From NCBI GenBank assembly GCA_011322715.1, contig DRLX01000158.1, forward strand, positions 1 to 31,736: a stretch of 31,736 nt of DNA, in the 5' to 3' direction. The DNA is from Desulfobulbaceae bacterium. Lineage in GTDB: Bacteria > Desulfobacterota > Desulfobulbia > Desulfobulbales > Desulfobulbaceae. This document shows positions 1 through 16,680 of this stretch, piece by piece (the first letter of the stretch is position 1; every line of letters starts with the position of its first letter). The notes below the pieces were generated by a model. It searched no databases and was not told where the DNA came from. It saw only the letters and a program-made list of their open reading frames with translations. The translations under genes were made by a program, and so were the position numbers.

Positions 1-1224
1 ATGCTGCTGGGCTTTTTTGGGCTTGTCGCCCTTGCCGGTCTCCTTGTCGGACTCCATGGTTTTTTTGTCGGCTATCGACATGTATACAATGTCACCAGGG
101 AAATATCCTGGGGCATGCTTATTTCGGCATACATCTTCTGCGTTGTTACTTCCACCGGGCTCTGTATTGTTTCGTCCTTTGGTCATGTTTTTGGTAATGA
201 AGCCCTCATGCCGATAGCCAAACGTGCGGTTTTCCTGTCCATAATTTTTTTATTAGGCGGATTTTGCATCATCTTTTTTGATATTGAAAATCCCTTCAGA
301 ATGGCGATCTGGAATGTGATTTCCCCTAATTTCAGATCGAATATGTGGTGGATGGGAACCTTGTACGGTGCCTATATGGTCCTTATGATGATTGAGTATT
401 ATTGCCTGCTTAATCAGAATCATACCGTGTCCAGAATTGTTGGTTTTATCGGCCTGTCAGTAGGTATTGCCGCCCATAGTAACCTCGGCGGTATCTTTGG
501 TATGCTTCATGGCCGTCCCTTCTGGTATGGGCCCTATCTGCCGATCTACTTTATATTTTCCGCCGCCATGTCCGGTGGTTGTGCTATTTTGTTTTTTACA
601 ACGCTCGCGGCCAAGATTAATCCGGAGATTATGAATCAGCGCATGGAGCGTGCGGTAAAGTCTCTGACCCTGCTGACCGTCTATTTTATCGCCACCATAA
701 TCTTTTTTACTATCTGGAAGGTCATTACCGGTCTGGTTTCCGAAGGCAAGTATCCGGTGATCATGTCGTTTCTGACCGGTGATTATGCCGTTAATTTTTG
801 GTTTTTTGAGATTTTCCTCGGTATGGTTCTGCCGCTTTTTCTGCTTATTGCTTCAAGGGGTAGAAAATATACGCTCATCATGTGGACAACCGGCCTTATG
901 ATGGTGGGGATTTTCTTTATGCGTTACGACATTGTTATCCCCGGGCAAATGGTTCCGGTGTATCATTCCCTTGGCGTTGTTGAGGCCTCCCATATAATGT
1001 CCTATGTTCCCTCTTTTCATGAGATTATGATATCAATCTGGGGCCTTGCCTTTATTATAATTGCCTATCTGGCCGGTGAAAAGATGCTGAACGGCCATCA
1101 GCTGCAGAAACATGAGATTGTTCCCGAAGGTGCCTATATCTGTCCTGGTTGCGGTGGTATCCACTATATGAAAGAGGGCGAAACCATGGAAGAGGCGATG
1201 AAACGTCAGCATGGGAACTGGTAA
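1..1224 (+). CDS. NrfD/PsrC/DsrP-family integral membrane anchor (quinone-interacting subunit); 5' end may lie outside the window
   Basis: Polytopic hydrophobic protein with NrfD-like segments (VTREISWGMLISAYIF, SNMWWMGTLY, AHSNLGGIFG, RPFWYGP, FFMRYDIVIPGQ); adjacent to a 4Fe-4S partner gene. Confidence 0.85.
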   Translation: MLLGFFGLVALAGLLVGLHGFFVGYRHVYNVTREISWGMLISAYIFCVVTSTGLCIVSSFGHVFGNEALMPIAKRAVFLSIIFLLGGFCIIFFDIENPFRMAIWNVISPNFRSNMWWMGTLYGAYMVLMMIEYYCLLNQNHTVSRIVGFIGLSVGIAAHSNLGGIFGMLHGRPFWYGPYLPIYFIFSAAMSGGCAILFFTTLAAKINPEIMNQRMERAVKSLTLLTVYFIATIIFFTIWKVITGLVSEGKYPVIMSFLTGDYAVNFWFFEIFLGMVLPLFLLIASRGRKYTLIMWTTGLMMVGIFFMRYDIVIPGQMVPVYHSLGVVEASHIMSYVPSFHEIMISIWGLAFIIIAYLAGEKMLNGHQLQKHEIVPEGAYICPGCGGIHYMKEGETMEEAMKRQHGNW

Positions 1225-1332
1225 GTTGAACCCAAGCAATGTTCAGGCTGCAGGCGATATTTCGTCAATAATGGTTGCGCAGGCATCCACAGTATCCTGT
1301 TGAATCTATAGAATTGTGTAATGGAGATTAGA

Positions 1333-2157
1333 ATGAAATTTCCTAAAATAAATTTCGATGAAATGGAAAATGAGGGCACTAAATCGGTGACGTCCAGGGA
1401 AAGAAGAAAATTTCTGAAACTTGGGTTTGCCGTTGCCGGTGTCTATGCGGGAGGGAAATTCCTGTCCCTGACCTCTCTGGTTGGTTCGGCCCAGGCCTCA
1501 ACCGGTGCGGAAAGGGCAGTGAAAGACCTGTACAGCCCTCATTACAGTATGGTGATCCGCCAGTCCATGTGCATTGATTGTGAGCGGTGTGTCGAGGCAT
1601 GCATCAAGACGAATGATGTCCCGGAATATGGCTACAGAACACGGATCTTGACCAAGAAGTATTCCGGGACCCTGGACAAGGCGGTGGAGTTTATCCCGGT
1701 CCTCTGTAACCATTGCAATAATCCACCCTGTGTGCGCGGCTGCCCGACCAAGGCTACATATAAGGATCCGGTTACCGGTATTGTTCGTATGGAGAGTAAG
1801 AAGTGCATCGGCTGTAAGACGTGTATTCTTGCCTGCCCTTATGATGCCAGGTATTTTGATGAAGAACGGCATGCCATAGACAAGTGTGATTTCTGCTGGG
1901 ACAAACGATTGTCGAAGGGGGAAACCCAGACCGGTTGTTCCGCCGCCTGTCCAACGGGCGCCCGTACCTTTGGTGATCTCAGTGACCCGAATAGTATTGT
2001 TTATAAGCTGGTTCATCAGATTCAGGAAGAGGTCTGGGTGCTTCGTCCCGATGACAATACAAAACCCAATGTGTTCTATATGAAGGGAACCATCGGGTCA
2101 GTGGATGCCATCCTTAAGGGATCTAAATTCAAGTATTTTGATCCGACAAAGGTATGA
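1333..2157 (+). CDS. Tat-exported 4Fe-4S ferredoxin subunit (NrfC/PsrB/DsrO-like)
   Basis: Twin-arginine motif SRERRKFLK; four Cys groups CIDCERCVEAC, CNHCNNPPCVRGC, CIGCKTCILAC, CDFC...CSAAC; GGAG precedes ATG 1333 (ORF track start 1321 is the alternative). Confidence 0.9.
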   Translation: MKFPKINFDEMENEGTKSVTSRERRKFLKLGFAVAGVYAGGKFLSLTSLVGSAQASTGAERAVKDLYSPHYSMVIRQSMCIDCERCVEACIKTNDVPEYGYRTRILTKKYSGTLDKAVEFIPVLCNHCNNPPCVRGCPTKATYKDPVTGIVRMESKKCIGCKTCILACPYDARYFDEERHAIDKCDFCWDKRLSKGETQTGCSAACPTGARTFGDLSDPNSIVYKLVHQIQEEVWVLRPDDNTKPNVFYMKGTIGSVDAILKGSKFKYFDPTKV

Positions 2158-2330
2158 TGGCGTCGTAAAAACTTCGATCTATGGCGTCCTGTCCCGTGGC
2201 GACTCACAACATACTACTGTATAGTTGAGACCCGCCCCGGAACACTACCCCTCGGAGTTCTTGCTTACCTGCATATCTATGTTTTTACTTAGCCATCCTT
2301 GAAGAAATCTTGACTTTTTTCGAGATCATC
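2156..2330. mobile_element. MITE-like non-autonomous element, family A, copy 1
   Basis: Imperfect terminal inverted repeats GATGGCGTCGTAAAAA (2156-) and reverse-complement GATGATCTCGAAAAAA (-2330); 7-bp direct repeat AAGGTAT at 2149-2155 and 2331-2337; internal core shared with 14246-14398. Confidence 0.8.
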
Positions 2331-2370
2331 AAGGTATAATACTCCCTCCTTTCCGCATCATCCCCCTAGG

Positions 2371-2403
2371 CAGCGTACCGGTAGTGGCCGGTACGCTGTT
2401 TCA
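2371..2403 (+). terminator. Rho-independent terminator of the nrfD/4Fe-4S unit
   Basis: Perfect 11-bp stem CAGCGTACCGG / CCGGTACGCTG, 6-nt loop, followed by a short T run. Confidence 0.7.
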
Positions 2404-2542
2404 GTTTGTCCTGATCGGTATTCTCCCTGAGTTGCATGTGCGGCGGTTTCCCGGTCACGCCATTTCTGTTCCCCATTTTTATACTCTGGGTCCTACCGAG
2501 TGAACCGGATTTTAATGGCTGTACATGGGCAATTTTTCCTTT

Positions 2543-2598
2543 GCATATATTTTGTATATGCTTTATATAGATTTTAATGAATGAATCACCATTCATTA
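2543..2598. promoter_or_regulatory. Two palindromic candidate transcription-factor sites upstream of the multiheme cytochrome operon
   Basis: GCATATA-N5-TATATGC (2543-2561) and TAATGAAT-N8-ATTCATTA (2575-2598). Confidence 0.35.
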
Positions 2599-2697
2599 TT
2601 GTTTTTCTGCTTCTCTTCGGGGTTGTTATATATTATCCACGTATTTACGAGTAGTTGGAGTATGTAAAATTCACCCTGCATTCATCAACAAAAAAGG

Positions 2698-4704
2698 ATG
2701 GGAGACATGAGCGCCACTATTGGGAAAAAGGCAGGAGTCGTCGTCACTTTCTTTTTCATTGTTCTGACTGCCTTGGCCATGAGCAGCCACAAGGCCCTGT
2801 CCATGAGCAATGAGGACTGTCTGGAGTGCCATGGTGATGAAGATCTCACCAGAGAAGCGGATGACAGTTCCGTGTATGTCAATGCTGAGGTTTTGGCAAA
2901 GTCCGTTCATGCCGATGAAGAATGCGTTTCCTGTCATCAGGATGCCGACACCGAAGATGAGCATCCTCCTAAATTGAAAAGAGTCAACTGTGCGGAATGT
3001 CATGATGATATTGGTGCAATATACGAGAAAAGCATTCATGGCAAGGCACGTTCCAGGGGCGATGCCCTGGCCCCTTACTGTTCTTCCTGCCATGGGACTC
3101 ATGATATCCTGCCGCCCAATGACCCAAAATCAACAGTATATGTCACTAATATTCCCTTAACTTGCGGACGGTGTCATCGGGAAGGCTCTCCGATGACCAA
3201 GACCCATGAGGATATTGATCAACATAATGTTCTGAAAAATTTTTCCATGTCCATGCATGGCAAGGGGTTGCTGAAATCAGGTTTGATTGTTGCGGCCGTA
3301 TGTACCAGTTGTCATACCTCCCATAACGTTCGTCCCCATACCGATCCGGAATCTTCAACCAACCCTAAAAACGTTGCGAAAACCTGCATGCATTGCCATG
3401 CCAATATTGAAAACACGCATAGAAAAGTCATCAGAAAGTCACTCTGGGAAAAAGAGCCGCACAAAATTCCCTCCTGTATTGAATGTCACCAGCCCCATGA
3501 ACAGAGTAAGATCGGCTATCAGGGCAAGTTGTCCGATGCCTACTGCCTGAAATGCCACAGCAATCCCAATCTTGTCATGCCTGATGAGGAAGGCGGTGTG
3601 AAAAGCCTGTATGTGGATACGGATGAGTATGATGAATTTAGAGGGACTTTGCACAAAAAAAATAAAATTGCCTGCGTCAAATGTCATTCCAATATGGATA
3701 GCGCCAGAGATCCCGTCTGCAGGGGATCCGGACCGGTGGATTGCTCCGCCTGTCATCCGCAGCAGAGTGATATTTACGCAAAAAGTATCCATGGCAAACT
3801 GCTGGCCGAGTTGGACCCGAACGCTCCGGGATGCACCGATTGTCACGGCAAGCACAACAATATGTCCAAGGCCAATCCTGATTCTCCGATCAATCCGATA
3901 AATATTCCCAATCTCTGCGGCGCATGTCACCAGGATGGGAAAAAAGCCGCAGTCAGAATAAAGGGAGGAGAACGGAAAATAGTTGCCACCTATTCCATGA
4001 GTATCCACGGCAAAGGACTTGTCAAAAGTGGTTTACTGGTTTCCGCCACCTGTGCAAGCTGCCATACCGGCCATTCCATACTACCGCCTTCTGATGCTGA
4101 GTCGACCGTTAACCGCAATCACGTGAGTGATACCTGTGAAACCTGTCATTATGGTGTTGCCAGGAAAATTCAGCAGTCGATCCACAATCCTCCTGTCGGC
4201 GCCGACACCTCACGCTTTCCCATCTGCAGCGACTGCCATTCAGCCCATGGGGCGGCACGTGTTTCCGGGGCAACATTCAGAAAACAGCAGGCGAGTGAAT
4301 GTGAAAAATGCCATGAGGAGCAGGTGGAAACCTATCGTGAGAGTTATCACGGCAAGGCGTCCATGTTGGCCGGTGGTGAACGGGCGGCGCAATGTTCGGA
4401 CTGTCACGGCAGTCATACCATCCTGGCGGCCACGGATCCCGATTCAACCCTTGCCGGTCTCAATGCCGTCAAGACGTGTCGAAAATGTCACCCCGGAGCA
4501 AATTTAAGTTTTACCACCTATCGGACCCATGCCACCCACGGTGATAAGAAGCGCAATCCCGATATGTATTATGCATTCTGGAGCATGACCAGCCTCCTGC
4601 TGGGCACTTTTTCACTGTTTGGGCTGCATACCTTGCTCTGGTTCCCGCGATCTTTCAAGGAACGTATGAAGATGATACGCAAGGCCCGCGAGCAAAAAAA
4701 GTAG
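2698..4704 (+). CDS. 19-heme cytochrome c with N-terminal signal/anchor and C-terminal transmembrane helix (CbcL-like cytochrome c moiety)
   Basis: 19 CxxCH motifs counted by hand; repeated S(I/M)HG distal-His motifs; C-terminal YAFWSMTSLLLGTFSLFGLHTLLW helix; alternative start 2707. Confidence 0.92.
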   Translation: MGDMSATIGKKAGVVVTFFFIVLTALAMSSHKALSMSNEDCLECHGDEDLTREADDSSVYVNAEVLAKSVHADEECVSCHQDADTEDEHPPKLKRVNCAECHDDIGAIYEKSIHGKARSRGDALAPYCSSCHGTHDILPPNDPKSTVYVTNIPLTCGRCHREGSPMTKTHEDIDQHNVLKNFSMSMHGKGLLKSGLIVAAVCTSCHTSHNVRPHTDPESSTNPKNVAKTCMHCHANIENTHRKVIRKSLWEKEPHKIPSCIECHQPHEQSKIGYQGKLSDAYCLKCHSNPNLVMPDEEGGVKSLYVDTDEYDEFRGTLHKKNKIACVKCHSNMDSARDPVCRGSGPVDCSACHPQQSDIYAKSIHGKLLAELDPNAPGCTDCHGKHNNMSKANPDSPINPINIPNLCGACHQDGKKAAVRIKGGERKIVATYSMSIHGKGLVKSGLLVSATCASCHTGHSILPPSDAESTVNRNHVSDTCETCHYGVARKIQQSIHNPPVGADTSRFPICSDCHSAHGAARVSGATFRKQQASECEKCHEEQVETYRESYHGKASMLAGGERAAQCSDCHGSHTILAATDPDSTLAGLNAVKTCRKCHPGANLSFTTYRTHATHGDKKRNPDMYYAFWSMTSLLLGTFSLFGLHTLLWFPRSFKERMKMIRKAREQKK

Positions 4705-4796
4705 AGGGTGCTGCTGAAGTCCGCCGACAAATGGAATGCATCCAAAAACGATCCCGGCAATATGTGTCGGATGTGCAACAGAAAGGGTAAACTGAA

Positions 4797-5642
4797 ATGA
4801 GTAAAACAGAGACAGTCTATGTTCAACGATTTAATGTTTTTGCACGGGTTCTCCACCTTACGGTTATTATCAGTTTTTTGACCCTTGCTCTCACCGGCAT
4901 GGCCCTGAAATTTGCCGATGAACCATGGGCCGGCGCCATAGCCGGTTTTTTCGGGAGCTTCAGGGTCCTTGGCATTCTACACAGGATAGGAGCCGTCCTT
5001 ACCTTCGGCTATTTTTTCTTCCATTTTATTCTGATCTTCCAAAACTGGCGTAAAAGCGATAAGTCTTTTGTCGGTTTTATCATCGATAATACCATCGGTA
5101 TGGTGCCGAATCTGCAGGATGCAAGAGAAATAGGCCAGACGATTAAATGGTTTGTCGGTAAGGGACCCAGGCCCAGATACGGCCGTTGGACCTACTGGGA
5201 AAAATTTGATTATTTTGCCGTATTCTGGGGTGTTGCCGTTATCGGCCTTACCGGACTTTGTCTCTGGTTTCCCACCTGGGTCACACAGTATATCCCAGGC
5301 TCCTGGTTGAACATTGCCACTATTATCCACAGTGATGAGGCGTTGCTGGCCACGGGATTTATCTTTACCATTCATTTCTTCAACACCCATATCCGACCTG
5401 AAAAGTGGCCTCTGGATCGTGTCATCTTTACCGGTTCCGTTACCCTTGAAGAACTCAAACATGAACGACCGCGTGAATATGAAATGCTGGTTAAGGAGGG
5501 ACGCCTGGATGATGTCATTGTCGACAAACCGCCGACCTGGCTGGTCGTCTTTGCCTATGTCTTCGGATTCGCCGCTCTGACTATCGGAATGGGACTTGTT
5601 TTCCTCATTATGTATACGATTTTTCAGCGTACATTCGGTTAA
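4797..5642 (+). CDS. Diheme cytochrome b, FdnI/HydC/CbcL type
   Basis: Multiple TM helices with four placed His (RVLH, GILH, TIIHSDE, FTIHFFNTH) and RWTYWEKFDYFAVFWG; directly follows the multiheme gene. Confidence 0.88.
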   Translation: MSKTETVYVQRFNVFARVLHLTVIISFLTLALTGMALKFADEPWAGAIAGFFGSFRVLGILHRIGAVLTFGYFFFHFILIFQNWRKSDKSFVGFIIDNTIGMVPNLQDAREIGQTIKWFVGKGPRPRYGRWTYWEKFDYFAVFWGVAVIGLTGLCLWFPTWVTQYIPGSWLNIATIIHSDEALLATGFIFTIHFFNTHIRPEKWPLDRVIFTGSVTLEELKHERPREYEMLVKEGRLDDVIVDKPPTWLVVFAYVFGFAALTIGMGLVFLIMYTIFQRTFG

Positions 5643-5693
5643 AGAAAGAACCTGAGCCGGGAGCCCTTTTTATAGAGGATTACATCCGTATCA

Positions 5694-5984
5694 ATGGAAC
5701 ATAAATTGCCGTTGCATACTCGCCTGGGTATTTACGCCACAGGGGCAATTTTGGGTATACTGTGTTTTGTTATGCTGAAGACTTGTGCGAGTGCCTTGTA
5801 TTACGGTGGAAAGACGACAAGCGATGAAATTAGAGATTCGTATACGGCCGGTTTTACATCCGGTTTGAACGGAGGTGACACAGTTAATCAGTCGGTTAAA
5901 AGTTTGTCGAATCCGCTTCTTGTAAAAATGTATCGAAAGGGTTTTCGTGACGGCAGAGATCGTAAGGGTTATGGGAAAAAATAA
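5694..5984 (+). CDS. Small hypothetical membrane-anchored protein
   Basis: 96-aa ORF, AGAGGA upstream, one N-terminal hydrophobic helix, two Yx(2)GFx(2)G motifs; co-oriented between cytochrome b and rhodanese genes. Confidence 0.6.
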   Translation: MEHKLPLHTRLGIYATGAILGILCFVMLKTCASALYYGGKTTSDEIRDSYTAGFTSGLNGGDTVNQSVKSLSNPLLVKMYRKGFRDGRDRKGYGKK

Positions 5985-6017
5985 AAGAGAAAATGAAATA
6001 CTCTTAAAGGAAGAAAA

Positions 6018-6818
6018 ATGAAAAAAAACAGTCTATTCTTGGTACTGTTCTCTGTGCTTTTCAGCTGGGTAGGCGCATTGCCCGGTCCTGTCCTGGCCAT
6101 GGTTATCGATATTCCGACTATTGATGCGGATATGTTGAAGTATGAACTGTATCACGGCGCTCCCATGGTCCTGGCCAATGCCCTGAGCCCCATAGAATTC
6201 AAGGATCTTACCATCAGGGGATCAGTAAATATTCCATCGAGTAAGGTGGAAGGTAATCCAAACCTGCCCGAGGATAAAAGCACCTTGCTTGTCTTTTTCT
6301 GTAAAGGTCCCGGCTGACTCAAGAGTACTCTGGCCGCCAGGAAGGCGGTTAAACTCGGCTATACAAATGTGAAGCTGTACAATGGCGGGCTACCCGACTG
6401 GATTAGAAAGAGATATCCCGTTTTGCGTACCGTCAACTATCCAAAGGTCAATATCCCAAAAGTATTTCCCGAACATGTGTATAAAAATATCAACAATGTC
6501 GTCATCCTTGATATCGGCGGAGAGGCATTGCGGCGGATAGGAGAATTTCATACGGGTGATGTCATCCATATACCCCTTGATGACCTTGAAGAAAAATACA
6601 CAGCTCTTCCCAAGGACAAAAAGATTGTTATCGTTGATGTAATGGGTAAACAGGAGAATATCGCCGGTAGGTTCCTGACCATGAAAGGGTATACTAATCT
6701 GGCTGAGATGGCCGGCGGCGGACGTGCCTGGTTTAAGACCATTCGGGTGAATGAGATGGAAAAAAGGAAAACCGGCGTTCGGTCGGGGAAAGCGGAAGGA
6801 AAAATGAAGAACAAATAA
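6018..6818 (+). CDS. Exported tandem-rhodanese sulfurtransferase, putative selenoprotein (Sec100 from UGA at 6315-6317)
   Basis: ORFs 6018-6317 and 6369-6818 are in one frame; the gap translates LKSTLAARKAVKLGYTN, completing the rhodanese motif FFCKGPG-U-LKS..AA..A...GY.NV..Y.GG.P.W; SECIS-like hairpin follows; N-terminal signal peptide; 266 aa in total. Confidence 0.85.
6315..6356 (+). promoter_or_regulatory. Bacterial SECIS-like element
   Basis: Upper stem GGCCGCC / GGCGGTT with loop AGGAA starting 21 nt after UGA and G at loop position 2; lower stem GAGT/ACTC. Confidence 0.75.
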
Positions 6819-6897
6819 TCGTATCGTGAATTTTCTCCGGCATGACCTCATTTTTTGTGGTTCATGTTGTGATTGGAGCTGTATAGTATTCCATCAG

Positions 6898-6930
6898 CCT
6901 GCCGGTCTTGTTGACCGGCAGGTTTTTTTT
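6898..6930 (+). terminator. Rho-independent terminator closing the cytochrome-rhodanese operon
   Basis: 10-bp stem CCTGCCGGTC / GACCGGCAGG, 5-nt loop, T8 tail. Confidence 0.88.
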
Positions 6931-7254
6931 ATTGTGGCCGCGTGAGGATAATTTATCAACGTATTGCTGGTTTTATTTGTAACTCGGCTGCAAGATGTGT
7001 ATATATTCGTCGTCCAGAATACTGTTTACGTTGAGGGCTCTTGAAAAAATAATTATTCCATTCTCCTTGCCTTTACTTCAGCTTTTACGGTGTAAACAGG
7101 AGTACATGGCGTTGCTATGTAATCATCTTTTACGTTTTGAATTTGTGGAAAAAATCGGCGTATTATTGGAGAATTATTTTACTAATGCCCGTACACCTGT
7201 TTCTTTTGGTTATCCTTGAGATGCCCGATGCATCCGGATAGGGGTAAGAGGAAA

Positions 7255-8820
7255 ATGATAGTGAAAAAAAATGCGTTTTATTTTGTCTGCTGCATGTTTA
7301 TAGGTTTTTCGGCGGTGAACGGACATGCCGCTCCCATAGGTTCGGGTCGTTCAATTGTGCAGAAAAATTTTCAACAGCTTGTCAAAACTAATGGTTGTCC
7401 GGGCTGTGATCTCGCCGGTGCCGTCTTGACTAGAGTTGATCTTTCCGGCGCTGATCTTTCCGGCGCAAATCTGGCCGGTGCCAAATGCAATCTGGCTGAT
7501 TTTTCCGGCGCCAATCTCAGAGGTGCGAACCTCCAGGGTGCAAATCTCGGCGGGGCCGACCTGGCCGGAGCTGATTTGACCGGTGCCAATCTGACCGGTG
7601 CAATTCTGCAGGGCGCCTATTTGAAAGGGGCAAAGATCGACGGTGTGCTCACCGATCAAGCCGGTGACCAGGACAGTGAGGCAACCGGTGAAACCGTGTT
7701 TGTCCCGGATGGCGCAAAATCTAAACACGCACCTTACAGTCAGGAAGTGGCTATTGAAAATAAGCGCGATCTTGAAGAAACTCCGCCGACGGTATCAAAA
7801 AACCAGGACAAGAACACCGACAATGTGCGAGCAAAACAGCCGCCGGTTGCTCCCATGACCGACTCAAAGCATCCTGTGGCCATGGCTGATGCCGTGGTCC
7901 CATCGTCATCGGCGACTTTAAGTAACCAAAAAACTGAAGAAGAAACGGCGGTTGTACTTAATGAACAGAAAAAACAGCCTGTTGTCGCTAAGAAGACAGT
8001 GGCGGCAACACCGGAAAAAGTTGAGCTGGAACCGTCATCGGAAACCACCATCGGAGTGGATAAGGATTCGGCCGTGCATGACATGATCGCCCGGATTGAG
8101 GCGGATTCTCCGGATAAAAATCCTCCGGCAATAAAGAAAAAAGCACGTGCCGATGTCGCCGGCCCCGACGCAGGAAAACCGAAGATGGTTCAGGAGAAAA
8201 GCAGACCGAAGGCAACCACCGTCCCTGTCGTGGAAGCAAGTCCTGAAATACACGCAACAACTCCAAAAACTGCAGAAGCAGGTAGGCAACAGAACAAAAC
8301 AGTATCGGTAACGACCAAAACCGACGGGCAGGCAACAAAGGTCGCCGCACCTGCGGCCGGTGATGTTGCTGCAACAGCCGGTACTCCGGGAGCCGCTGTA
8401 AGTCAGAGTGTAGCAGGTATAAAAAACGGGGCCGGCCCACTCCTCTATACCGTGGAAACACCGGCTCAGGCTGCAGCGGAAAAACAGGCCCTTGTCGATC
8501 GGTTGCTCGATACCGATGCCTGCGTGGAGTGTGATCTTGCCGGGGTGGACCTTTCCGGCAAGCGACTTAAAGGTGTTGATCTTGAAAGGGCTAATCTTGC
8601 AGGCGCTGATCTGTCGGATACCAATCTTTCCGAGGCCAACCTCAAAGGTGCCGATCTTGCCGGAGCCAATCTCAGAGGCGCCGATCTCTCCGAAGCTGAT
8701 CTGTATAAGGCCGACCTCACCGACGCTGATTTAACCGGTGCGGACTTGTCTGAGGCATCAACGGATTCGGCTGATTTTACCGGTGCCCAAGGCGTACCCG
8801 TTACCGGAGATAACAAGTAA
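7255..8820 (+). CDS. Secreted protein with two pentapeptide-repeat domains joined by a long low-complexity linker
   Basis: A(D/N)Lxx repeats near both termini, preceded by CPGCDL and CVECDL; signal peptide; AGAGG before ATG 7255 (track start 7216). Confidence 0.85.
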   Translation: MIVKKNAFYFVCCMFIGFSAVNGHAAPIGSGRSIVQKNFQQLVKTNGCPGCDLAGAVLTRVDLSGADLSGANLAGAKCNLADFSGANLRGANLQGANLGGADLAGADLTGANLTGAILQGAYLKGAKIDGVLTDQAGDQDSEATGETVFVPDGAKSKHAPYSQEVAIENKRDLEETPPTVSKNQDKNTDNVRAKQPPVAPMTDSKHPVAMADAVVPSSSATLSNQKTEEETAVVLNEQKKQPVVAKKTVAATPEKVELEPSSETTIGVDKDSAVHDMIARIEADSPDKNPPAIKKKARADVAGPDAGKPKMVQEKSRPKATTVPVVEASPEIHATTPKTAEAGRQQNKTVSVTTKTDGQATKVAAPAAGDVAATAGTPGAAVSQSVAGIKNGAGPLLYTVETPAQAAAEKQALVDRLLDTDACVECDLAGVDLSGKRLKGVDLERANLAGADLSDTNLSEANLKGADLAGANLRGADLSEADLYKADLTDADLTGADLSEASTDSADFTGAQGVPVTGDNK

Positions 8821-9003
8821 TTTCACATCCGGAAATGCGTAACCCCCGGAGTTTTGCTCTCCTTGCAGCCGTTTCCGGATAAACAGGCATTCCCGGTGTA
8901 GTGGGCTCAATAAATGATGAAATCAGAGGAGGCATAGAGGCAGGCCGCAATTGTCGGCGTTCCAAGGCAAGATTCTCTGTTTCCTGTCTTCGGATAAATT
9001 TTC

Positions 9004-9030
9004 TTGACAGAATTTTTTTAATTCGATAAT
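9004..9030 (+). promoter_or_regulatory. Candidate sigma70 promoter of rpsT
   Basis: Perfect TTGACA at 9004-9009; GATAAT at 9025-9030 with a short 15-bp spacer. Confidence 0.45.
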
Positions 9031-9087
9031 AAGAGAAGTTCAAAAAAATAAATGATGATCCCTGTTGGGGACAATAAGGAGTGTTGT

Positions 9088-9360
9088 ATGGCGAACCATA
9101 AATCCGCAATGAAAAGAGACCGTCAGTCAAAAGTGCGTCGTCTTCGTAACCGTATGTATAAATCAAAGATGAAGACAGCCATTCGACAGGTTGAAGAGGC
9201 TCTTGTCGCCGGGTCTGAGGAAGAGGCCCGTAACGCCTTGGCCAAGGCGGTTCCGGTAATTCAGAAAACCGCTGCCAAGGGAACTATTCATAGAAAGACA
9301 GCATCCCGTAAGGTTTCCCGTTTAACCAGGAGAGTGAACAGGATGCAGCCCCTTGGTTAA
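9088..9360 (+). CDS. rpsT: 30S ribosomal protein S20
   Basis: MANHKSAMKR...IHRKTASRKVSRL signature; AAGGAG SD before ATG 9088. Confidence 0.97.
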   Translation: MANHKSAMKRDRQSKVRRLRNRMYKSKMKTAIRQVEEALVAGSEEEARNALAKAVPVIQKTAAKGTIHRKTASRKVSRLTRRVNRMQPLG

Positions 9361-9391
9361 GGGGTGTCCATTATTTTCATTTTGAACGTAT

Positions 9392-9429
9392 AAGCCATGG
9401 GAGCAATCTGCTTCCATGGCTTTTTTTTT
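9392..9429 (+). terminator. Rho-independent terminator after rpsT
   Basis: AAGCCATGG-GAGC / GCTT-CCATGGCTT stem followed by a T run. Confidence 0.8.
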
Positions 9430-9467
9430 ATTCTTTGTCCTCCTGTTTGGGGAATTTGTGATTTACA

Positions 9468-10964
9468 ATGTATAGCCCTGATCTTACGACTTTTACGGAA
9501 ATGACGGACCAGTCCGGTCTTGTTCCCGTGTATCGGACGATTATTGCCGATCTGGATACGCCGTTGACGCTGTTTGCCAAAATTGCCGGTGAGCGGAGTC
9601 ATGCCTTTCTCTTTGAATCCATGGAAGGAGGAGAAAAATGGGGCCGGTATTCCTTTATCGGTCTTGATCCGCTGGTCACCTTTACCAGCAGGGGAGACAG
9701 GGTACTTCTGAATCGGCCGGATCAGGAAAGGGGGGCCAGGGAAATTGACCACTGCAATCCTCTGGATGAACTGCAGCGTCTTCTTGACTCTTTTAAGACC
9801 GCTGACCTGCCCGGCATGCCGAGGTTTTACGGTGGTGCCGTTGGTTTTTTAGGATACGACATGGTTCGCTTTGTCGAAGATATTCCCTGTCGGCATCCCG
9901 AGCTGCCATATCCGGACAGTGCATTTATGGTGCCCCGACTGGTGTTGATCCATGATGCCGTCCAGCAGACGTTGACCATTGTCTGTAATTTGCAGGTAGA
10001 TAGTCGCTTTTCCGCAGAAGATCTTTACATTCAGGGATGTCGGCGTATTGATGAGGTGATTAAACTCCTACATGCGCCCCTCAGTACGGCTTCGTCCCAA
10101 AAGACGGACCCGCATGAATTTTCTTCCAATATGCAACCCGAGGCCTTTGAGGCCATGGTGGAAGCAGCCAGGGAATATATTCTGGCCGGGGACATTATTC
10201 AAGTTGTGCTGTCGCAACGTTTTCATACTGAAACTCACCTTGATCCTTTTTTACTCTACCGGGCACTCCGCCATATTAATCCAAGTCCCTATCTCTTTTT
10301 TATCCGTCACGAACAAAGCATCCTGATCGGCTCATCTCCGGAGATACTTGTTCGTCTTGAACAGGGAGAAATCGAGCTGCGTCCCATTGCCGGAACAAGA
10401 AAACGAGGCCGCACCGAGGCTGAGGACAAGGCTCTTGAGCGTGAGTTGCTTGCCGATCCCAAGGAAAAGGCGGAACATCTCATGCTGGTCGATCTGGGCC
10501 GGAACGATGTGGGTCGGGTGGCTGAATCAGGGTCGGTTCATGTTAAAGATCTGCTGGTGATTGAACGCTACAGTCATGTTATGCATATTGTTTCCGGTGT
10601 ACATGGCCGCTTGGCACAGGGGAAAAATCAGTTTGACGTTCTTAAGGCCTGCTTCCCCGCCGGGACCGTGTCCGGTGCGCCCAAGATTCGGGCGATGGAG
10701 ATCATTGATGAGCTGGAAGTCGAACGCCGGGGACCTTATGCCGGAGCTGTCGGATATTTCGGGTTTTCAGGGAATATGGATTTCTGTATTACCATCCGTA
10801 CCTTTGTATTGCAGGAAACAGACGACCCGAACACCCGGGATCTTTATATCCAGGCCGGGGCCGGTATTGTGGCCGATTCCGATCCGAAAAAAGAATATGA
10901 GGAAACCCTGAATAAGGCACGCGGCCTGCGTCGCGCCGTGGAGCTTGCCGAAAAAGGGCTGTAG
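9468..10964 (+). CDS. trpE: Anthranilate synthase component I
   Basis: [60 protein letters not shown] motifs; first gene of the trp cluster. Confidence 0.95.
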
Positions 10965-14416: not shown

Positions 14417-15199
14417 TTATCTGGCAATGATCAGGGCGTTGGGAAATCCGTTGTTCTCTATAAAATGTTCGTAGCCGCGAGCTTTTTTCAATGAGGTTCC
14501 GGCAAAGACCATGACCCGGAACAGGTAGGTTCCGGCAGCCGGAAACTGCTGAATGATGACATCCTTGCCGTGGGCGGCGAATTTTTTTGCCAGTGCCCGC
14601 GCCGCTTTTCTTTGTTCAAATGATCCAACCTGAACATAAAAATGACCGGCATCAAAATTTTCATGTTTGAGCTTTGGTGAATGGGTAGCCGGTTTTCCCT
14701 TTGTTGCCGTTTTTGTCGGTGTGTGTACGGCCTCACCGAGGGCGGTTATCATCACTTTGGCTGTACCTTTGCCGATCATACCGATGGATTTTGCCGCCGA
14801 ATAACTCAAATCAATAATCCGGTTTTTGACAAAGGGGCCGCGGTCATTGATTCTGACCACGGTCGACCGGCCGTTTTTCAGGTTTTTTACCAACAGCATG
14901 GTGCCCATGGGCAGTGTTTTATGGGCGGCCGTCCCGCCGTACATGTCATAGATCTCACCATTTGATGTCTTGCGACCATGAAACTGTTTGCCATACCATG
15001 AAGCGATACCGATTTCTCTGTACCCCTCGGCGTTGGGGATTGGATAATACCTTTTTCCATGGATGACATAGGGCCGTTGGGTAGCCTTACCCGGTCGTTT
15101 CCGTTCATGTGGATGGGGTTTTATATATGGCGGTCCACAACTACTCACAAGAAACAGGAGCGCCAGTACAAAGGGCAGGGCACGGAAGTATCTCTTCAT
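14417..15199 (-). CDS. rlpA: RlpA-family septal ring lytic transglycosylase lipoprotein with C-terminal SPOR domain
   Basis: Lipobox LVSSC; GIASWYG..FHGRKTSNGE.YD, AAHKTLP, VRINDRGPF, RIIDLS; VQVGSF SPOR start. Confidence 0.93.
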   Translation of the reverse strand: MKRYFRALPFVLALLFLVSSCGPPYIKPHPHERKRPGKATQRPYVIHGKRYYPIPNAEGYREIGIASWYGKQFHGRKTSNGEIYDMYGGTAAHKTLPMGTMLLVKNLKNGRSTVVRINDRGPFVKNRIIDLSYSAAKSIGMIGKGTAKVMITALGEAVHTPTKTATKGKPATHSPKLKHENFDAGHFYVQVGSFEQRKAARALAKKFAAHGKDVIIQQFPAAGTYLFRVMVFAGTSLKKARGYEHFIENNGFPNALIIAR

Positions 15200-16680
15200 G
15201 GTTGATTTTTTCCCCGACGCTCAAGCAGGTGTTTGAAACGGTCGAGATAAAAGAGGCCGGCGGGACCGGTGGTATGCGGAGTGTAGGGACGTAAGCCGTC
15301 GTCATTACCGGTCAGGTCGTCAAAAAGTACCCGACCGTCACTGTCGACGGCAGAGAGATGGAGGTCAAGGATGGGACGAAATACCTTGAGGACACCATCG
15401 TCGTCACGACGAACAATGATCGGCCGCCAGCGGCGACGACCGAATCCCTTATACCAGATGCCGGGCCGGATTTTCCCGGTAATGGTGTCGGGCATGGTGG
15501 GATCACGTTCATCTTCATCCGAATTGAGGTTGTGATCCAGGAGCTGTTCCACCCAGGAGCTTGACTGGACTGTTAATCGTTCCATCATGTCAAAGTCATC
15601 TGTTTCACTGCGCATCAGATAGGTGCCGTAATCGTCAAAACTCCACTGTGCGTGGCAGACCTGGCAGCTCACCCGGTCGGAGTACTTCTTATGAGCGGGA
15701 TTACGCAACATGGGAACGGCGTGAGTATGGCCGGAATGGTCGATGAAAACCGGTTTTCCCTTATCAATTTCGAGACCTTTTATGTTCGGGGGCCGGGTCC
15801 ATGATTCAGGTTCAGCGTGGCAACTCAGGCAACTTATTTTTCGCTCAATTTGTTGTTGGTCCGCCTGGAGATTTTTTCCGTTGTGACAGTCGATACAGAT
15901 TAAGCCTTTTTGCTGGTGGATATCCGGGGCCAGGTCATGCAGTTCTACGCCATAGGGCCGGAGATAGGGTTCACTGCTGGTATAGGGCGTTCGGTATTCC
16001 CAGTTGAAATCATGCTCAAACTGGCCGTAATAATCGGCACCGACATGGTTGGCATAATGGCAGCTTATACACTGCCAGTCGCCTGGAGATTTCAGGAAAC
16101 GGTGACTTTGCAAGCTGCCTCCGGAAAACTGAAGATGGCATGCGGCGCATCCTGTTCCTCTAGTAATATAGGGATAGTCATCGCCCCGGCTATATAGGTG
16201 ACAGCGCAGACAGCGACGTCTAAGCATATCGTCGACCAGAGCAAGGGCCGGGTTCTTTTCCTGCAGGGGGATGGCTACCAGGGAATCAATGGTGTCGGTC
16301 GCTCCGAAGTGATGACGGGTGAGGTTGACGGCCTTTTCCAGGCTTAGATGCAGGCTGCCTGCACAGCCCTGTATTTGTTTGGGATGGCATGTGCCGCAGC
16401 TTTTGGCCATGTTGGCCGGACTTGCCGGTTCCGCAACAAGACCCGTGTGGGCCTTTTGTTGTTCCGTGGCCGTATTATCACCCCGGTGGCAGGAGATACA
16501 GCCCTGGTTGTGGTGTTGATCAAGAGTGACTTCGGCATGGCAACGCCTGCACCCCGGCAACAGGGCCGCAGGTTTGCTTATGGGCGCAATCGTTTTTTTT
16601 TCAGGCCGTGGCGCATCGTCTTTACAACCGGCAAGCAGCGTCGCCAGGGCCAGAAAAATGAGGAAAAATTTGTCGTGCAT
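15196..16680 (-). CDS. 9-heme cytochrome c lipoprotein (tentatively ExtM-like)
   Basis: Lipobox LLAGC; 9 CxxCH motifs counted; ATGA overlap with rlpA. The ExtM resemblance is from memory and unverified. Confidence 0.85.
   Translation of the reverse strand: MHDKFFLIFLALATLLAGCKDDAPRPEKKTIAPISKPAALLPGCRRCHAEVTLDQHHNQGCISCHRGDNTATEQQKAHTGLVAEPASPANMAKSCGTCHPKQIQGCAGSLHLSLEKAVNLTRHHFGATDTIDSLVAIPLQEKNPALALVDDMLRRRCLRCHLYSRGDDYPYITRGTGCAACHLQFSGGSLQSHRFLKSPGDWQCISCHYANHVGADYYGQFEHDFNWEYRTPYTSSEPYLRPYGVELHDLAPDIHQQKGLICIDCHNGKNLQADQQQIERKISCLSCHAEPESWTRPPNIKGLEIDKGKPVFIDHSGHTHAVPMLRNPAHKKYSDRVSCQVCHAQWSFDDYGTYLMRSETDDFDMMERLTVQSSSWVEQLLDHNLNSDEDERDPTMPDTITGKIRPGIWYKGFGRRRWRPIIVRRDDDGVLKVFRPILDLHLSAVDSDGRVLFDDLTGNDDGLRPYTPHTTGPAGLFYLDRFKHLLERRGKNQP

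What the first reader, a model, noticed from the sequence alone, without database searches (positions are those of the whole stretch)
2698..6930. Candidate quinone-linked sulfur/selenium redox module: 19-heme cytochrome + cytochrome b + membrane protein + Sec-rhodanese
Four co-oriented genes with short gaps (92, 51 and 33 bp) end at one strong terminator. Established: Geobacter CbcL couples an FdnI-type cytochrome b to a multiheme c domain to exchange electrons with the quinone pool; rhodaneses carry sulfane sulfur; the Geobacter ext locus links rhodanese-like and cytochrome genes to selenite/tellurite handling. Inference: this unit may wire the quinone pool through a long heme chain to a periplasmic selenopersulfide catalyst for S0, polysulfide, thiosulfate or Se-oxyanion turnover, possibly with the upstream NrfD/4Fe-4S pair. 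I do not recall this combination being characterised.
Basis: partly seen in the sequence, partly recalled or inferred. Interest (0 to 1): 0.8.

Follow-up and report, generated by a model that had tools for sequence, protein, structure and literature searches.

The report
Split CbcL cytochrome with selenocysteine rhodanese
A hydrothermal-vent sulfate-reducer relative carries an operon in which a known type of membrane "electron wire" (a 19-haem cytochrome c plus a cytochrome b that taps the quinone pool) has acquired a small membrane protein and an exported selenocysteine-containing rhodanese, a conserved but uncharacterised combination that may reduce or carry sulfur or selenium compounds.

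Summary
Window 2698-6818 holds four co-oriented genes with gaps of 92, 51 and 33 bp:
- a 19-CXXCH cytochrome c;
- an FdnI-type dihaem cytochrome b;
- a 96-aa single-helix protein;
- an exported tandem rhodanese read through UGA 6315-6317.
A strong terminator follows at 6896-6924.

The selenocysteine is well supported. The UGA is kept in seven orthologues and nearly all other homologues have Cys at that column. A SECIS hairpin carries a compensatory synonymous change. selA, selB and tRNA-Sec are present in the genome.

The cytochrome pair is not new in kind. It is a split member of the CbcL/MtrH/MtoC quinol-oxidase family. Of 52 full-length 19-haem relatives from other phyla, about two thirds are single fused proteins of 920-1020 aa, and none has a rhodanese or the small protein nearby.

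The rhodanese and small protein are accessories of one Desulfobulbales clade that includes cultured Desulfomarina profundi. In that clade a nine-haem/NrfD/NrfC unit always lies beside the four genes, in three different arrangements.

The closest unlinked relatives of the rhodanese sit next to chemoreceptor and MauE genes; more distant Sec paralogues sit next to probable sensor genes.

A role in sulfur or selenium turnover is plausible, by analogy with MccSep (2026) and Sud/Psr, but it remains inferred. I rate this a new variant of a known kind, of moderate interest.

The parts
1..1224 (+). NrfD-type quinone-interacting membrane subunit, about 30 N-terminal residues cut off by the contig start
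   Evidence: PF03916 E=1.5e-24. Weak HmcC/DsrP matches. Full-length orthologues are 435-440 aa. Own-genome contig C459 ends with the nine-haem cytochrome gene that precedes this gene in G007.
1321..2157 (+). NrfC/DsrO-like periplasmic 4Fe-4S subunit with a twin-arginine signal (RRKFLK)
   Evidence: PF13247 E=1.3e-24. NrfC, TtrB and DsrO profiles E~1e-49, all below their cut-offs.
2155..2332 (.). MITE-like repeat inserted at the NrfC stop codon, followed by a GC-rich hairpin
   Evidence: At least 40 copies at 79-90% identity on other contigs of the same genome. Also noted earlier as e1-5333195.
2698..4704 (+). 19-haem c-type cytochrome: N-terminal signal, periplasmic haem chain, C-terminal membrane helix with invariant His644. 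It corresponds to the c-domain plus first helix of a split CbcL-family protein.
   Evidence: 19 CXXCH. Cytochrome_C7, c3 and DmsE-family profiles match. All 38 haem Cys, the extra Cys341 and His644 are invariant in the full-length orthologues (one contig-truncated row has gaps at the last two motifs). Cys341, His644 and the sampled CXXCH349-353 motif are invariant in all 52 homologues from many phyla. Homologues fused to cytochrome b exist.
4797..5642 (+). FdnI/HydC-type dihaem cytochrome b with five helices. It corresponds to helices 2-6 of a split CbcL-family protein.
   Evidence: PF01292 E=2e-9 and TIGR01583 E=2.3e-12. 1kqf_C E=4.4e-4 with ligand His aligned. H20, H62, H178, H193, H198 and H222 are invariant. 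Hydropathy supports the helices.
5694..5984 (+). 96-aa single-helix protein with conserved NPLLxKxYxKGFR[DE]G motif; a candidate accessory subunit
   Evidence: No Pfam or NCBIfam match. Orthologues occur in every linked cluster, and more distant ones in other Desulfobulbales cytochrome islands; none in the 80 loci from other phyla. Complex prediction gave weak support: 0.53 against a best control of 0.00.
6018..6818 (+). Exported tandem rhodanese selenoprotein. Domain 1 carries the loop C95-K-G-P-G-U100-L-K-S. Domain 2 lacks a catalytic Cys.
   Evidence: PF00581 E=6.6e-17 with two stretches. AF2 model pLDDT 89. Foldseek top hit is the tandem rhodanese 6mxv. C95 aligns with the Cys at the rhodanese active-site position of 6mxv. 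Cys aligns at U100 in homologues.
6315..6317 (+). UGA decoded as selenocysteine (U100)
   Evidence: The TGA is conserved in six orthologues by direct inspection, plus G269. Cys is nearly invariant at this column in other homologues. selB, selA and tRNA-Sec are in the genome.
6323..6356 (+). SECIS-like hairpin: 8-bp GC-rich stem, AGGAA loop, starting 16 nt after the U of UGA
   Evidence: Fold -17.8 kcal/mol, z=-1.85. Paired synonymous changes (GCC/GCG to GCT/GCA) keep a base pair in three orthologues.
6896..6932 (+). Intrinsic terminator closing the unit
   Evidence: 12-bp stem, 8 GC pairs, T-run; the best site in 1-9500. Downstream genes are unrelated: pentapeptide-repeat protein, S20, trp operon.

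Best explanation
Genes 1 and 2 encode a split member of the CbcL/MtrH/MtoC family of inner-membrane bc-type cytochromes.

The dihaem cytochrome b, together with the His-bearing C-terminal helix of the cytochrome c, exchanges electrons with menaquinol/menaquinone. A chain of 19 c-haems carries them into the periplasm.

In one Desulfobulbales clade from hydrothermal vents (this genus, Desulfomarina profundi and relatives) the module has gained two dedicated partners:
- a small single-helix protein, probably sitting on the periplasmic face of cytochrome b;
- an exported tandem rhodanese whose extended active-site loop pairs the canonical Cys95 with Sec100.

The module is also always kept next to a nine-haem/NrfD/NrfC quinone-linked complex.

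Most likely the rhodanese binds sulfane sulfur (polysulfide, S0 or thiosulfate-derived), or selenium, as a persulfide or selenosulfide. It then either presents it to the haem chain for reduction or cycles through a Cys-S-Se-Sec bond that the haems re-reduce.

Shown: gene content, family membership, Sec decoding signals and conserved linkage.
Inferred: direction of electron flow, physical contact between rhodanese and cytochrome, and the substrate.
For: CbcL-family identity:
- 19 CXXCH followed by one helix, then five more helices in the next gene.
- FdnI-type profile and structure-sequence matches.
- His644, H20, H62 and H178+H193 reproduce the published CbcL pattern: one His in each of helices 1-3 and two in helix 5.
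- Of 52 full-length 19-haem homologues from other phyla, about two thirds are one fused ORF of 920-1020 aa. Variants with 20-23 haems reach about 1095 aa.
- This largely overlaps the 3-23 haems and 416-1034 aa reported for the family in PMC6295460.

Selenocysteine.

Linkage:
- The same four genes occur in G007, G010, G002, G008, G269 and D. profundi (Sec forms).
- They also occur in two metagenome contigs with Cys forms, at 55% rhodanese identity.
- The nine-haem/NrfD/NrfC unit lies upstream co-oriented, divergent, or downstream in different genomes.
- The cytochrome-linked rhodaneses form one clade with support 100/99.

Chemistry precedents:
- A haem-plus-Sec polysulfide reductase, MccSep, sits in the Geobacter ext cluster, which also encodes the rhodanese ExtH (PMC13510729 and PMC5877670).
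- The triheme cytochrome c3/c7 is reported to reduce polysulfide (same paper).

Habitat: hydrothermal-vent metagenomes from eight studies.
Against: - In the 80 loci examined from other phyla the cytochrome pair works without any rhodanese or small-protein homologue, so the haem chain does not need one.
- In other Desulfobulbales the gene after cytochrome b is instead a roughly 480-aa pentahaem NapC/NirT-like cytochrome.
- The nearest unlinked rhodanese relatives sit with chemoreceptor and MauE genes. More distant Sec paralogues sit with putative sensor and response-regulator genes. That context hints at sensing rather than catalysis.
- There is no expression or co-transcription evidence.
- Haem-to-selenosulfide electron transfer to a separate protein has no direct precedent.
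- The small-protein contact has only weak model support.
- No test of contact between the rhodanese and the cytochrome was run.
Confidence: 0.55

Rival explanations
1. The split CbcL is an ordinary extracellular-electron-transfer quinol oxidase feeding periplasmic and outer cytochromes (Fe(III), Mn(IV), partner cells). The rhodanese only handles sulfane sulfur formed nearby. For example it could carry away S0 or polysulfide made when sulfide meets oxidised haems or minerals, or protect the haem chain. It does not receive electrons.
For: - CbcL homologues are linked to Fe(III) reduction in Geobacter.
- One is up-regulated in the Desulfobulbales member Desulfurivibrio alkaliphilus during sulfide-driven iron-oxide respiration, alongside a rhodanese (PMC12545173).
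- Homologous loci in other phyla are packed with further multihaem cytochromes.
- L002 has further cytochrome modules downstream.
Against: - No porin-cytochrome genes lie next to the cluster in this clade.
- The rhodanese occupies the slot that a pentahaem cytochrome holds in sister lineages.
- The costly Sec residue and paired Cys suggest redox cycling rather than simple carriage.
Confidence: 0.2
2. The rhodanese is a periplasmic sensor or gate. Its Cys95/Sec100 pair reports sulfane-sulfur level or redox state and tunes the activity of the bc-cytochrome, perhaps through the small membrane protein. It does not turn over a respiratory substrate.
For: - The closest unlinked relatives are in conserved rhodanese-chemoreceptor-MauE clusters.
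- Paralogous CX4U rhodaneses lie beside response regulators and large membrane proteins read as sensors from their N-terminal sequence only; no domain search was run on them.
- CbcL is reported to be gated by redox potential (bioRxiv 10.1101/2022.08.31.506072, abstract listed).
Against: - No signalling domain is encoded in the four-gene unit or in the rhodanese itself.
- The gene sits inside a structural operon ending at one terminator.
Confidence: 0.1
3. The linkage has no functional meaning. The rhodanese and small-protein genes merely landed beside a cytochrome island and were inherited together in one clade.
For: - The linkage is confined to one clade.
- Distribution is patchy even within the genus: the cytochrome b orthologue was found in 4 of 12 other species.
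- Mobile repeats are present in the locus.
Against: - The four genes stay contiguous, co-oriented and tightly spaced down to 55% rhodanese identity.
- They stay together across a Cys/Sec switch.
- They stay together while the neighbouring NrfCD unit has been rearranged three ways.
Confidence: 0.08
4. UGA 6315 is a true stop, so the locus encodes a 99-aa truncated rhodanese plus a separate 149-aa inactive rhodanese domain.
For: Gene callers split it this way in public records, including D. profundi.
Against: - The UGA is conserved in seven orthologues at 69-90% identity, with the frame kept open on both sides.
- Homologues have Cys at that column.
- A SECIS hairpin with a compensatory change follows the UGA.
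- The full Sec machinery is present.
Confidence: 0.03

Closest known systems
CbcL (GSU0274) and the CbcL/MtrH/MtoC family of quinol oxidases/quinone reductases (Zacharoff 2016; Zhong & Shi 2018, PMC6295460)
   Same: - N-terminal periplasmic multihaem c domain followed by six membrane helices of HydC/FdnI dihaem-b type.
- His in helices 1, 2 and 3, and two His in helix 5.
- Fused homologues with 19-23 haems in many phyla.
   Different: - Here the protein is split after helix 1 into two genes.
- It has 19 rather than 9 c-haems.
- An invariant extra Cys (C341, C-x7-CxxCH) is present.
- It is accompanied by a small membrane protein and a Sec-rhodanese.
- Direct similarity to G. sulfurreducens CbcL itself was not computed.
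CbcBA of Geobacter sulfurreducens (Joshi et al. 2021, bioRxiv 10.1101/2021.04.15.440034)
   Same: Two-gene bc-cytochrome in which the c-type subunit is anchored by a C-terminal helix carrying a His proposed to ligate a b-haem.
   Different: - CbcB has four helices and three His, and is reported to share no sequence homology with CbcL.
- The b subunit here has five helices and the CbcL His pattern.
- Seven versus 19 c-haems.
MccSep (ExtKL, GSU2937-2936), the pentahaem selenoprotein polysulfide reductase (Mihara et al. 2026, PMC13510729)
   Same: - Combines c-haems with a Cys/Sec pair for chalcogen-chalcogen bond chemistry in the periplasm.
- Its gene cluster (ext) also encodes a rhodanese-like protein (ExtH).
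- Found in Desulfobacterota.
   Different: - In MccSep the Sec and the haem-ligating Cys are in the cytochrome itself.
- Here the Sec is on a separate rhodanese, and the cytochrome is an unrelated 19-haem quinone-linked chain.
- No homology was tested or claimed.
Sud/Psr of Wolinella succinogenes (my own knowledge)
   Same: A periplasmic rhodanese-fold protein binds polysulfide sulfur on a Cys and delivers it to a quinol-driven membrane reductase.
   Different: - Psr uses a molybdopterin catalytic subunit with NrfC/NrfD-type partners.
- Sud is a single domain with one Cys and no Sec.
Rhodanese-like selenoproteins, 'form 1' (UxxS) and TsoB (UxxxxU), as listed in PMC13188914
   Same: - U-L-K-S fits the UxxS motif.
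- The C-x4-U spacing equals the U-x4-U of TsoB.
- Paralogues in the same order share C-x4-U-x-x-S and the inactive second domain.
   Different: - Scores are far below the NCBIfam cut-offs for TsoB (46 against 805) and rhodanese_LYCAU (54 against 115).
- There is no DsbD-like domain.
- The cytochrome-operon context is not described for these forms.
Nhc/Ohc/Qrc-type periplasmic cytochrome:quinone complexes of sulfate reducers (my own knowledge, Pereira et al. 2011)
   Same: The neighbouring unit has a nine-haem c7-type cytochrome, a TAT-exported NrfC-like FeS protein and an NrfD-like membrane protein.
   Different: - All specific NCBIfam equivalogs (HmcB/C, DsrO/P, QrcC) score below their cut-offs.
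- The gene order is cytochrome, NrfD, NrfC.

Membership tests
CbcL/MtrH/MtoC bc-type cytochromes | Periplasmic N-terminal domain with multiple CXXCH (3-23 reported) | tested here: met
   19 CXXCH in P0001. All are conserved in the full-length orthologues.
CbcL/MtrH/MtoC bc-type cytochromes | Six transmembrane helices after the haem domain, HydC/FdnI-like dihaem b | tested here: met
   One helix ends P0001 and five are in P0002: four by hydropathy plus the His-rich helix 172-195. PF01292, TIGR01583 and 1kqf_C match.
CbcL/MtrH/MtoC bc-type cytochromes | His in helices 1-3 and two His in helix 5 (as described for CbcL) | tested here: met
   H644 (invariant in all 52 homologues). H20, H62, H178 and H193 are invariant.
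CbcL/MtrH/MtoC bc-type cytochromes | Single fused polypeptide | tested here: not met
   Two genes are separated by 92 bp. Fused orthologues at 42-50% and 50-60% identity show it is a split form.
CbcL/MtrH/MtoC bc-type cytochromes | Sequence similarity to G. sulfurreducens CbcL itself | not tested
   No CbcL sequence was available from a tool. Membership rests on architecture, the His pattern and the published length and haem ranges.
CbcL/MtrH/MtoC bc-type cytochromes | Menaquinol oxidation or menaquinone reduction | not testable with these tools
   Needs biochemistry.
CbcBA | b subunit with four helices and three His, not homologous to CbcL | tested here: not met
   P0002 has five helices and at least four invariant His, matching the CbcL pattern.
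Bacterial selenoprotein | In-frame UGA aligned with Cys in homologues | tested here: met
   Column C100 is nearly invariant Cys. The TGA is conserved in seven orthologues.
Bacterial selenoprotein | SECIS hairpin just downstream of the UGA | tested here: met
   Hairpin at 6323-6356. A compensatory synonymous pair change is present. The shuffle z-score is only -1.85.
Bacterial selenoprotein | selA, selB and tRNA-Sec in the genome | tested here: met
   selD was not searched.
Bacterial selenoprotein | Selenium in the protein | not testable with these tools
   Needs mass spectrometry or 75Se labelling.
Rhodanese sulfurtransferase (PF00581) | Rhodanese fold with catalytic Cys at the strand-loop junction | tested here: met
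   PF00581 above cut-off. The model has strand 90-94, then the loop, then helix 101-112. C95 aligns with the Cys at the rhodanese active-site position of 6mxv. Foldseek hits are rhodaneses.
Rhodanese sulfurtransferase (PF00581) | Canonical six-residue loop C-x4-[R/T] | tested here: not met
   The loop is two residues longer than in 6mxv and holds a second Cys/Sec (C-K-G-P-G-U-L-K-S).
Rhodanese-like selenoprotein form 1 (UxxS) | UxxS motif | tested here: met
   U100-L-K-S103. The motif is listed in PMC13188914. Homology to the listed example WP_010941598.1 was not tested.
TsoB (NF045694) / rhodanese_LYCAU (NF041203) | Score above the curated cut-off | tested here: not met
   46 bits against 805, and 53.6 against 115.
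Nhc-like nine-haem/NrfC/NrfD complex (neighbour) | Nine-haem cytochrome adjacent to NrfD and NrfC | tested here: met
   Seen in G007, G010, D. profundi, L041 and G269. In this genome the nine-haem gene ends contig C459, which abuts the window start.
MccSep | Five-haem cytochrome carrying Sec and a haem-ligating Cys | tested here: not met
   No UGA lies in the cytochrome gene and it has 19 haems. The resemblance is functional analogy only.

The most novel reading that the evidence does not exclude
This may be a second, non-homologous 'haem plus selenium' route to sulfur or selenium respiration.
- Menaquinol electrons run through a split CbcL-type wire of 19 c-haems, perhaps via a His/Cys-ligated haem at the invariant Cys341.
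- They reach a separate periplasmic rhodanese.
- The rhodanese's Cys95/Sec100 pair reductively cleaves polysulfide, S0, thiosulfate or selenite.
- The adjacent nine-haem/NrfCD complex feeds the quinone pool from periplasmic donors such as H2.
Probability: 0.25. Interest if true: 0.8.

Novelty: new variant of a known kind. Interest (0 to 1): 0.55.

Why it matters
CbcL-type cytochromes are treated as generic gateways from the quinone pool to extracellular acceptors. Here one is hard-wired to a selenocysteine rhodanese in vent-dwelling sulfate reducers.

If the rhodanese is the electron acceptor, this would be a new way to reduce sulfur or selenium compounds. It would parallel the MccSep polysulfide reductase reported in 2026, and it would assign a function to a widespread but unexplained family of CX4(C/U) periplasmic rhodaneses.

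The cluster is present in a cultured organism, Desulfomarina profundi (AP024086, about 590.5-594.7 kb). The hypothesis is therefore directly testable.

The work also shows two further things:
- 19-haem CbcL homologues, fused or split, occur in many phyla.
- They all share an invariant extra cysteine that has not been discussed in the papers I read.

Tried and rejected
- RNA evidence: two run searches found only DNA holders, from hydrothermal-vent metagenomes in eight studies, and one doubtful 5% hit. No reads were laid and co-transcription is untested.
- Sequence search of the 19-haem protein against PDB: no hit at E<=0.01.
- Atlas search for the small protein: best score 0.88, below the useful threshold; only unnamed clusters.
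- Complex prediction of the small protein against cytochrome b plus the cytochrome c anchor helix: 'weak support' only. The score was 0.53 against a best control of 0.00. Passes at 0.60 or under were reached by only 5 of 78 solved complexes and by all 4 mismatches that passed. The job also differed from the calibration. I use it as a hint only.
- The Desulfomarina profundi species description (10.1099/ijsem.0.005083) is not held, so its use of S0, thiosulfate or selenite could not be checked.
- Considered and rejected:
  - membership of TsoB or LYCAU rhodanese families (far below cut-offs);
  - CbcBA membership (wrong helix and His pattern);
  - an arsenate-reductase/Cdc25-type loop (no C-x5-R);
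  - UGA as a real stop.
It was used as 'linked' in the tree labels, which is a soft assumption.

Full report
OBSERVATION

The window is one whole contig (C158) of a fragmented genome: 595 contigs, 84% complete. On the + strand lie:
- NrfD, 1-1224, cut by the contig start;
- an NrfC-like TAT-exported 4Fe-4S protein, 1321-2157;
- after a 540-bp gap, four tightly spaced genes: 2698-4704, 4797-5642, 5694-5984 and 6018-6818, with gaps of 92, 51 and 33 bp.

The first of the four has exactly 19 CXXCH motifs. The second matches the FdnI/HydC cytochrome b family. The third is a 96-aa protein with one hydrophobic helix and no family match. The fourth is a signal-peptide-bearing tandem rhodanese interrupted by one TGA.

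The strongest terminator-like site in the first 9.5 kb follows at 6896-6924. Downstream genes are unrelated: a pentapeptide-repeat protein, S20 and the trp operon.

THE UGA IS A SEC CODON

- In an alignment of 24 homologues the UGA column holds Cys in nearly all. This gives the motif F-[FY]-C-K-G-P-x-[C/U]-x-K-S.
- The same in-frame TGA is present in G007, G010, G002, G008 and cultured Desulfomarina profundi, and in G269.
- An 8-bp GC-rich hairpin with an AGGAA loop starts 16 nt after the U of UGA.
- Three orthologues carry paired synonymous changes (GCC...GCG to GCT...GCA) that convert a C-G pair to U-A.
- selB, selA and a tRNA-Sec(tca) are in the same genome.
- Public gene calls split the protein in two, hence the many 149-aa 'hits'.

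A high-confidence model (pLDDT 89) places C95 at the end of strand 90-94 and U100 at the start of helix 101-112. C95 aligns with the Cys at the rhodanese active-site position of the tandem rhodanese 6mxv, and the loop is two residues longer. Foldseek returns only rhodaneses. The second domain has no Cys at the active-site position.

THE CYTOCHROME PAIR IS A SPLIT CbcL-FAMILY PROTEIN

The 19-haem protein ends in a membrane helix carrying His644, and cytochrome b adds five more helices.

Across the Desulfobulbales orthologues all 38 haem Cys, one extra Cys (C341) and His644 are invariant in the full-length sequences; one contig-truncated sequence lacks the last two motifs. In cytochrome b, H20, H62, H178, H193, H198 and H222 are invariant.

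A scan of one genome per species found 592 loci encoding relatives. The 80 best were nearly all from other phyla:
- Acidobacteriota, Bacteroidota, Ignavibacteriota and Calditrichota;
- Planctomycetota, Zixibacteria, Eisenbacteria, Gemmatimonadota and others.
Identity there is 49-60% for cytochrome b and mostly 41-51% over the full length of the haem protein.

Of the 52 full-length 19-haem homologues in those loci, about two thirds are one fused ORF of 920-1020 aa. Variants with 20-23 haems reach about 1095 aa.

This is the published architecture of the CbcL/MtrH/MtoC family: an N-terminal domain with 3-23 CXXCH, six helices, 416-1034 aa, in 15 phyla (PMC6295460). The His pattern described for CbcL is one His in each of helices 1-3 and two in helix 5. 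It is reproduced here by H644 | H20 | H62 | H178+H193.

CbcBA, the two-gene Geobacter complex, resembles this pair in having a His-bearing C-terminal anchor on the c subunit. It differs in having a four-helix b subunit reported as not homologous to CbcL.

I did not have a CbcL sequence, so direct similarity is untested.

HOW FAR THE LINKAGE REACHES

The full set of four genes is present in:
- four other species of the genus;
- G269, assigned to another family of the order;
- D. profundi;
- two metagenome contigs whose rhodanese has Cys instead of Sec, at 55% identity.

In all of these a nine-haem c7-type cytochrome, NrfD and NrfC lie alongside, in three different layouts:
- upstream and co-oriented (this genus);
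- divergent (D. profundi, L002, L041);
- downstream (G269).

In this genome the nine-haem gene ends contig C459, which abuts the window start.

In a maximum-likelihood tree the cytochrome-linked rhodaneses form one clade (100/99). The seven Sec forms form one sub-clade (100/100) nested among Cys forms. Two of the 'linked' labels rest only on matching contig lengths.

Outside that clade the picture changes:
- Rhodaneses at 50% identity or less sit in rhodanese-chemoreceptor-MauE clusters or alone.
- A paralogous family with the same C-x4-U-x-x-S loop, often in pairs, sits by response regulators and large membrane proteins that I read as sensors from their N-terminal sequence only.
- Other Desulfobulbales carry the 19-haem/cytochrome b pair followed by a roughly 480-aa pentahaem NapC/NirT-like membrane cytochrome instead.

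An HMM of the small protein (motif NPLLxKxYxKGFR[DE]G) finds it only in Desulfobulbales cytochrome islands. It finds it in none of the 80 loci from other phyla. The tblastn search likewise found no rhodanese in those loci.

Within the genus the cytochrome b orthologue was found in 4 of 12 other species, many of them incomplete genomes.

MECHANISM

Shown or strongly supported:
- a quinone-interacting dihaem b unit coupled to a long periplasmic c-haem chain;
- an exported rhodanese with a Cys/Sec pair;
- conserved linkage of these with a small membrane protein and an NrfCD-type complex.

Inferred: the rhodanese takes up sulfane sulfur or selenium on C95/U100, and the haem chain supplies the electrons that release sulfide or selenide, or that re-reduce a Cys-S-Se-Sec bond.

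Support is by analogy:
- The Geobacter pentahaem selenoprotein MccSep is a polysulfide reductase that uses a Sec and a haem-ligating Cys. Its ext gene cluster also encodes the rhodanese-like protein ExtH (PMC13510729 and PMC5877670).
- Triheme cytochrome c3/c7 is reported to have polysulfide-reducing activity (same paper).
- Sud delivers polysulfide sulfur to Psr in Wolinella (my own knowledge).
- The organism occurs in hydrothermal-vent metagenomes from eight studies.

The small protein is modelled on the periplasmic face of cytochrome b (residues 37-56 and 169-181), with only weak support: 0.53 against a best control of 0.00.

The invariant C341 (C-x7-CxxCH) is conserved in all 52 homologues examined across phyla. 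It could be a His/Cys haem ligand and a contact point for sulfur chemistry. Because it is equally conserved where no rhodanese exists, it is not evidence for the coupling.

RIVALS

- An ordinary electron-export role with the rhodanese as a mere sulfur carrier. A CbcL homologue and a rhodanese are both up-regulated in Desulfurivibrio during sulfide-driven iron-oxide respiration (PMC12545173).
- A sensing or gating role, suggested by the family's other gene contexts.
- Linkage without function.
- A real stop codon.

I cannot separate the first two from the main reading with the data available.

A MITE-like repeat with at least 40 genomic copies, plus a hairpin, sits between NrfC and the cytochrome gene. 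The four genes therefore probably have their own promoter in this genome.

NOVELTY

- The cytochrome pair is a new (split, 19-haem) member of a known family.
- The Sec-rhodanese fits a listed selenoprotein type (UxxS; PMC13188914).
- The conserved combination, and its pairing with a nine-haem/NrfCD unit, is not described in the papers I could search.

I rate it a new variant of a known kind. It is moderately interesting and directly testable in D. profundi.

Noticed in passing
window 2155-2332: A repeat of about 178 bp sits at the NrfC stop codon. It has at least 40 copies at 79-90% identity on other contigs of this genome, so it is MITE-like. It may partly explain why the assembly is so fragmented.
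   Followed up: partly
window 3718-3720 (Cys341 of the 19-haem protein); L049-L128: One extra cysteine, eight residues before the 11th CXXCH (C-x7-CxxCH), is invariant in all 52 19-haem CbcL-type homologues from many phyla. It may be a His/Cys haem ligand or an unusual haem attachment. It is not mentioned in the CbcL papers I read.
   Followed up: partly
L022:10542-11996, L030:11059-12519, L027:10039-11475; L091, L096, L102 and others: In many lineages the CbcL-type gene is followed by a 480-500-aa membrane cytochrome with 5-6 CXXCH and a NapC/NirT-like stretch. This is possibly an ImcH-like second quinol oxidase, which would place two quinone gateways side by side.
   Followed up: no
L044:8909-10590, L045:8651-10251, L046, L048: Desulfobulbales genomes carry paralogous tandem rhodaneses with the same C-x4-U-x-x-S loop, each with one TGA and often as adjacent pairs. 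They lie next to response regulators and large membrane proteins that are probably sensors; no domain search was run on these neighbours.
   Followed up: partly
L003:10001-12770, L042:8001-10759: There is a conserved three-gene cluster of rhodanese (Cys form), a methyl-accepting chemotaxis protein and MauE. It hints that this rhodanese family can act in periplasmic sulfur or redox sensing.
   Followed up: no
window 1090-1224 (NrfD C-terminus): The NrfD-like protein ends in a soluble tail with a C-P-G-C-G-G motif, which is unusual for NrfD proteins.
   Followed up: no
window 15196-16680 (- strand): Another multihaem cytochrome (494 aa, 9 CXXCH) lies 8 kb downstream on the opposite strand. It is next to a lytic transglycosylase/SPOR gene.
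   Followed up: no
window 5694-5984 and L024, L026, L027, L030, L031: The small-protein family (NPLLxKxYxKGFR[DE]G) recurs in Desulfobulbales next to other cytochrome c/cytochrome b pairs and NrfCD units, often divergently oriented. It seems tied to these islands rather than to the rhodanese.
   Followed up: partly
G000:C213:41-703: The same genome holds a second, fused CbcL-like gene: 40% identity to this cytochrome b within a 577-aa open frame at a contig end.
   Followed up: no
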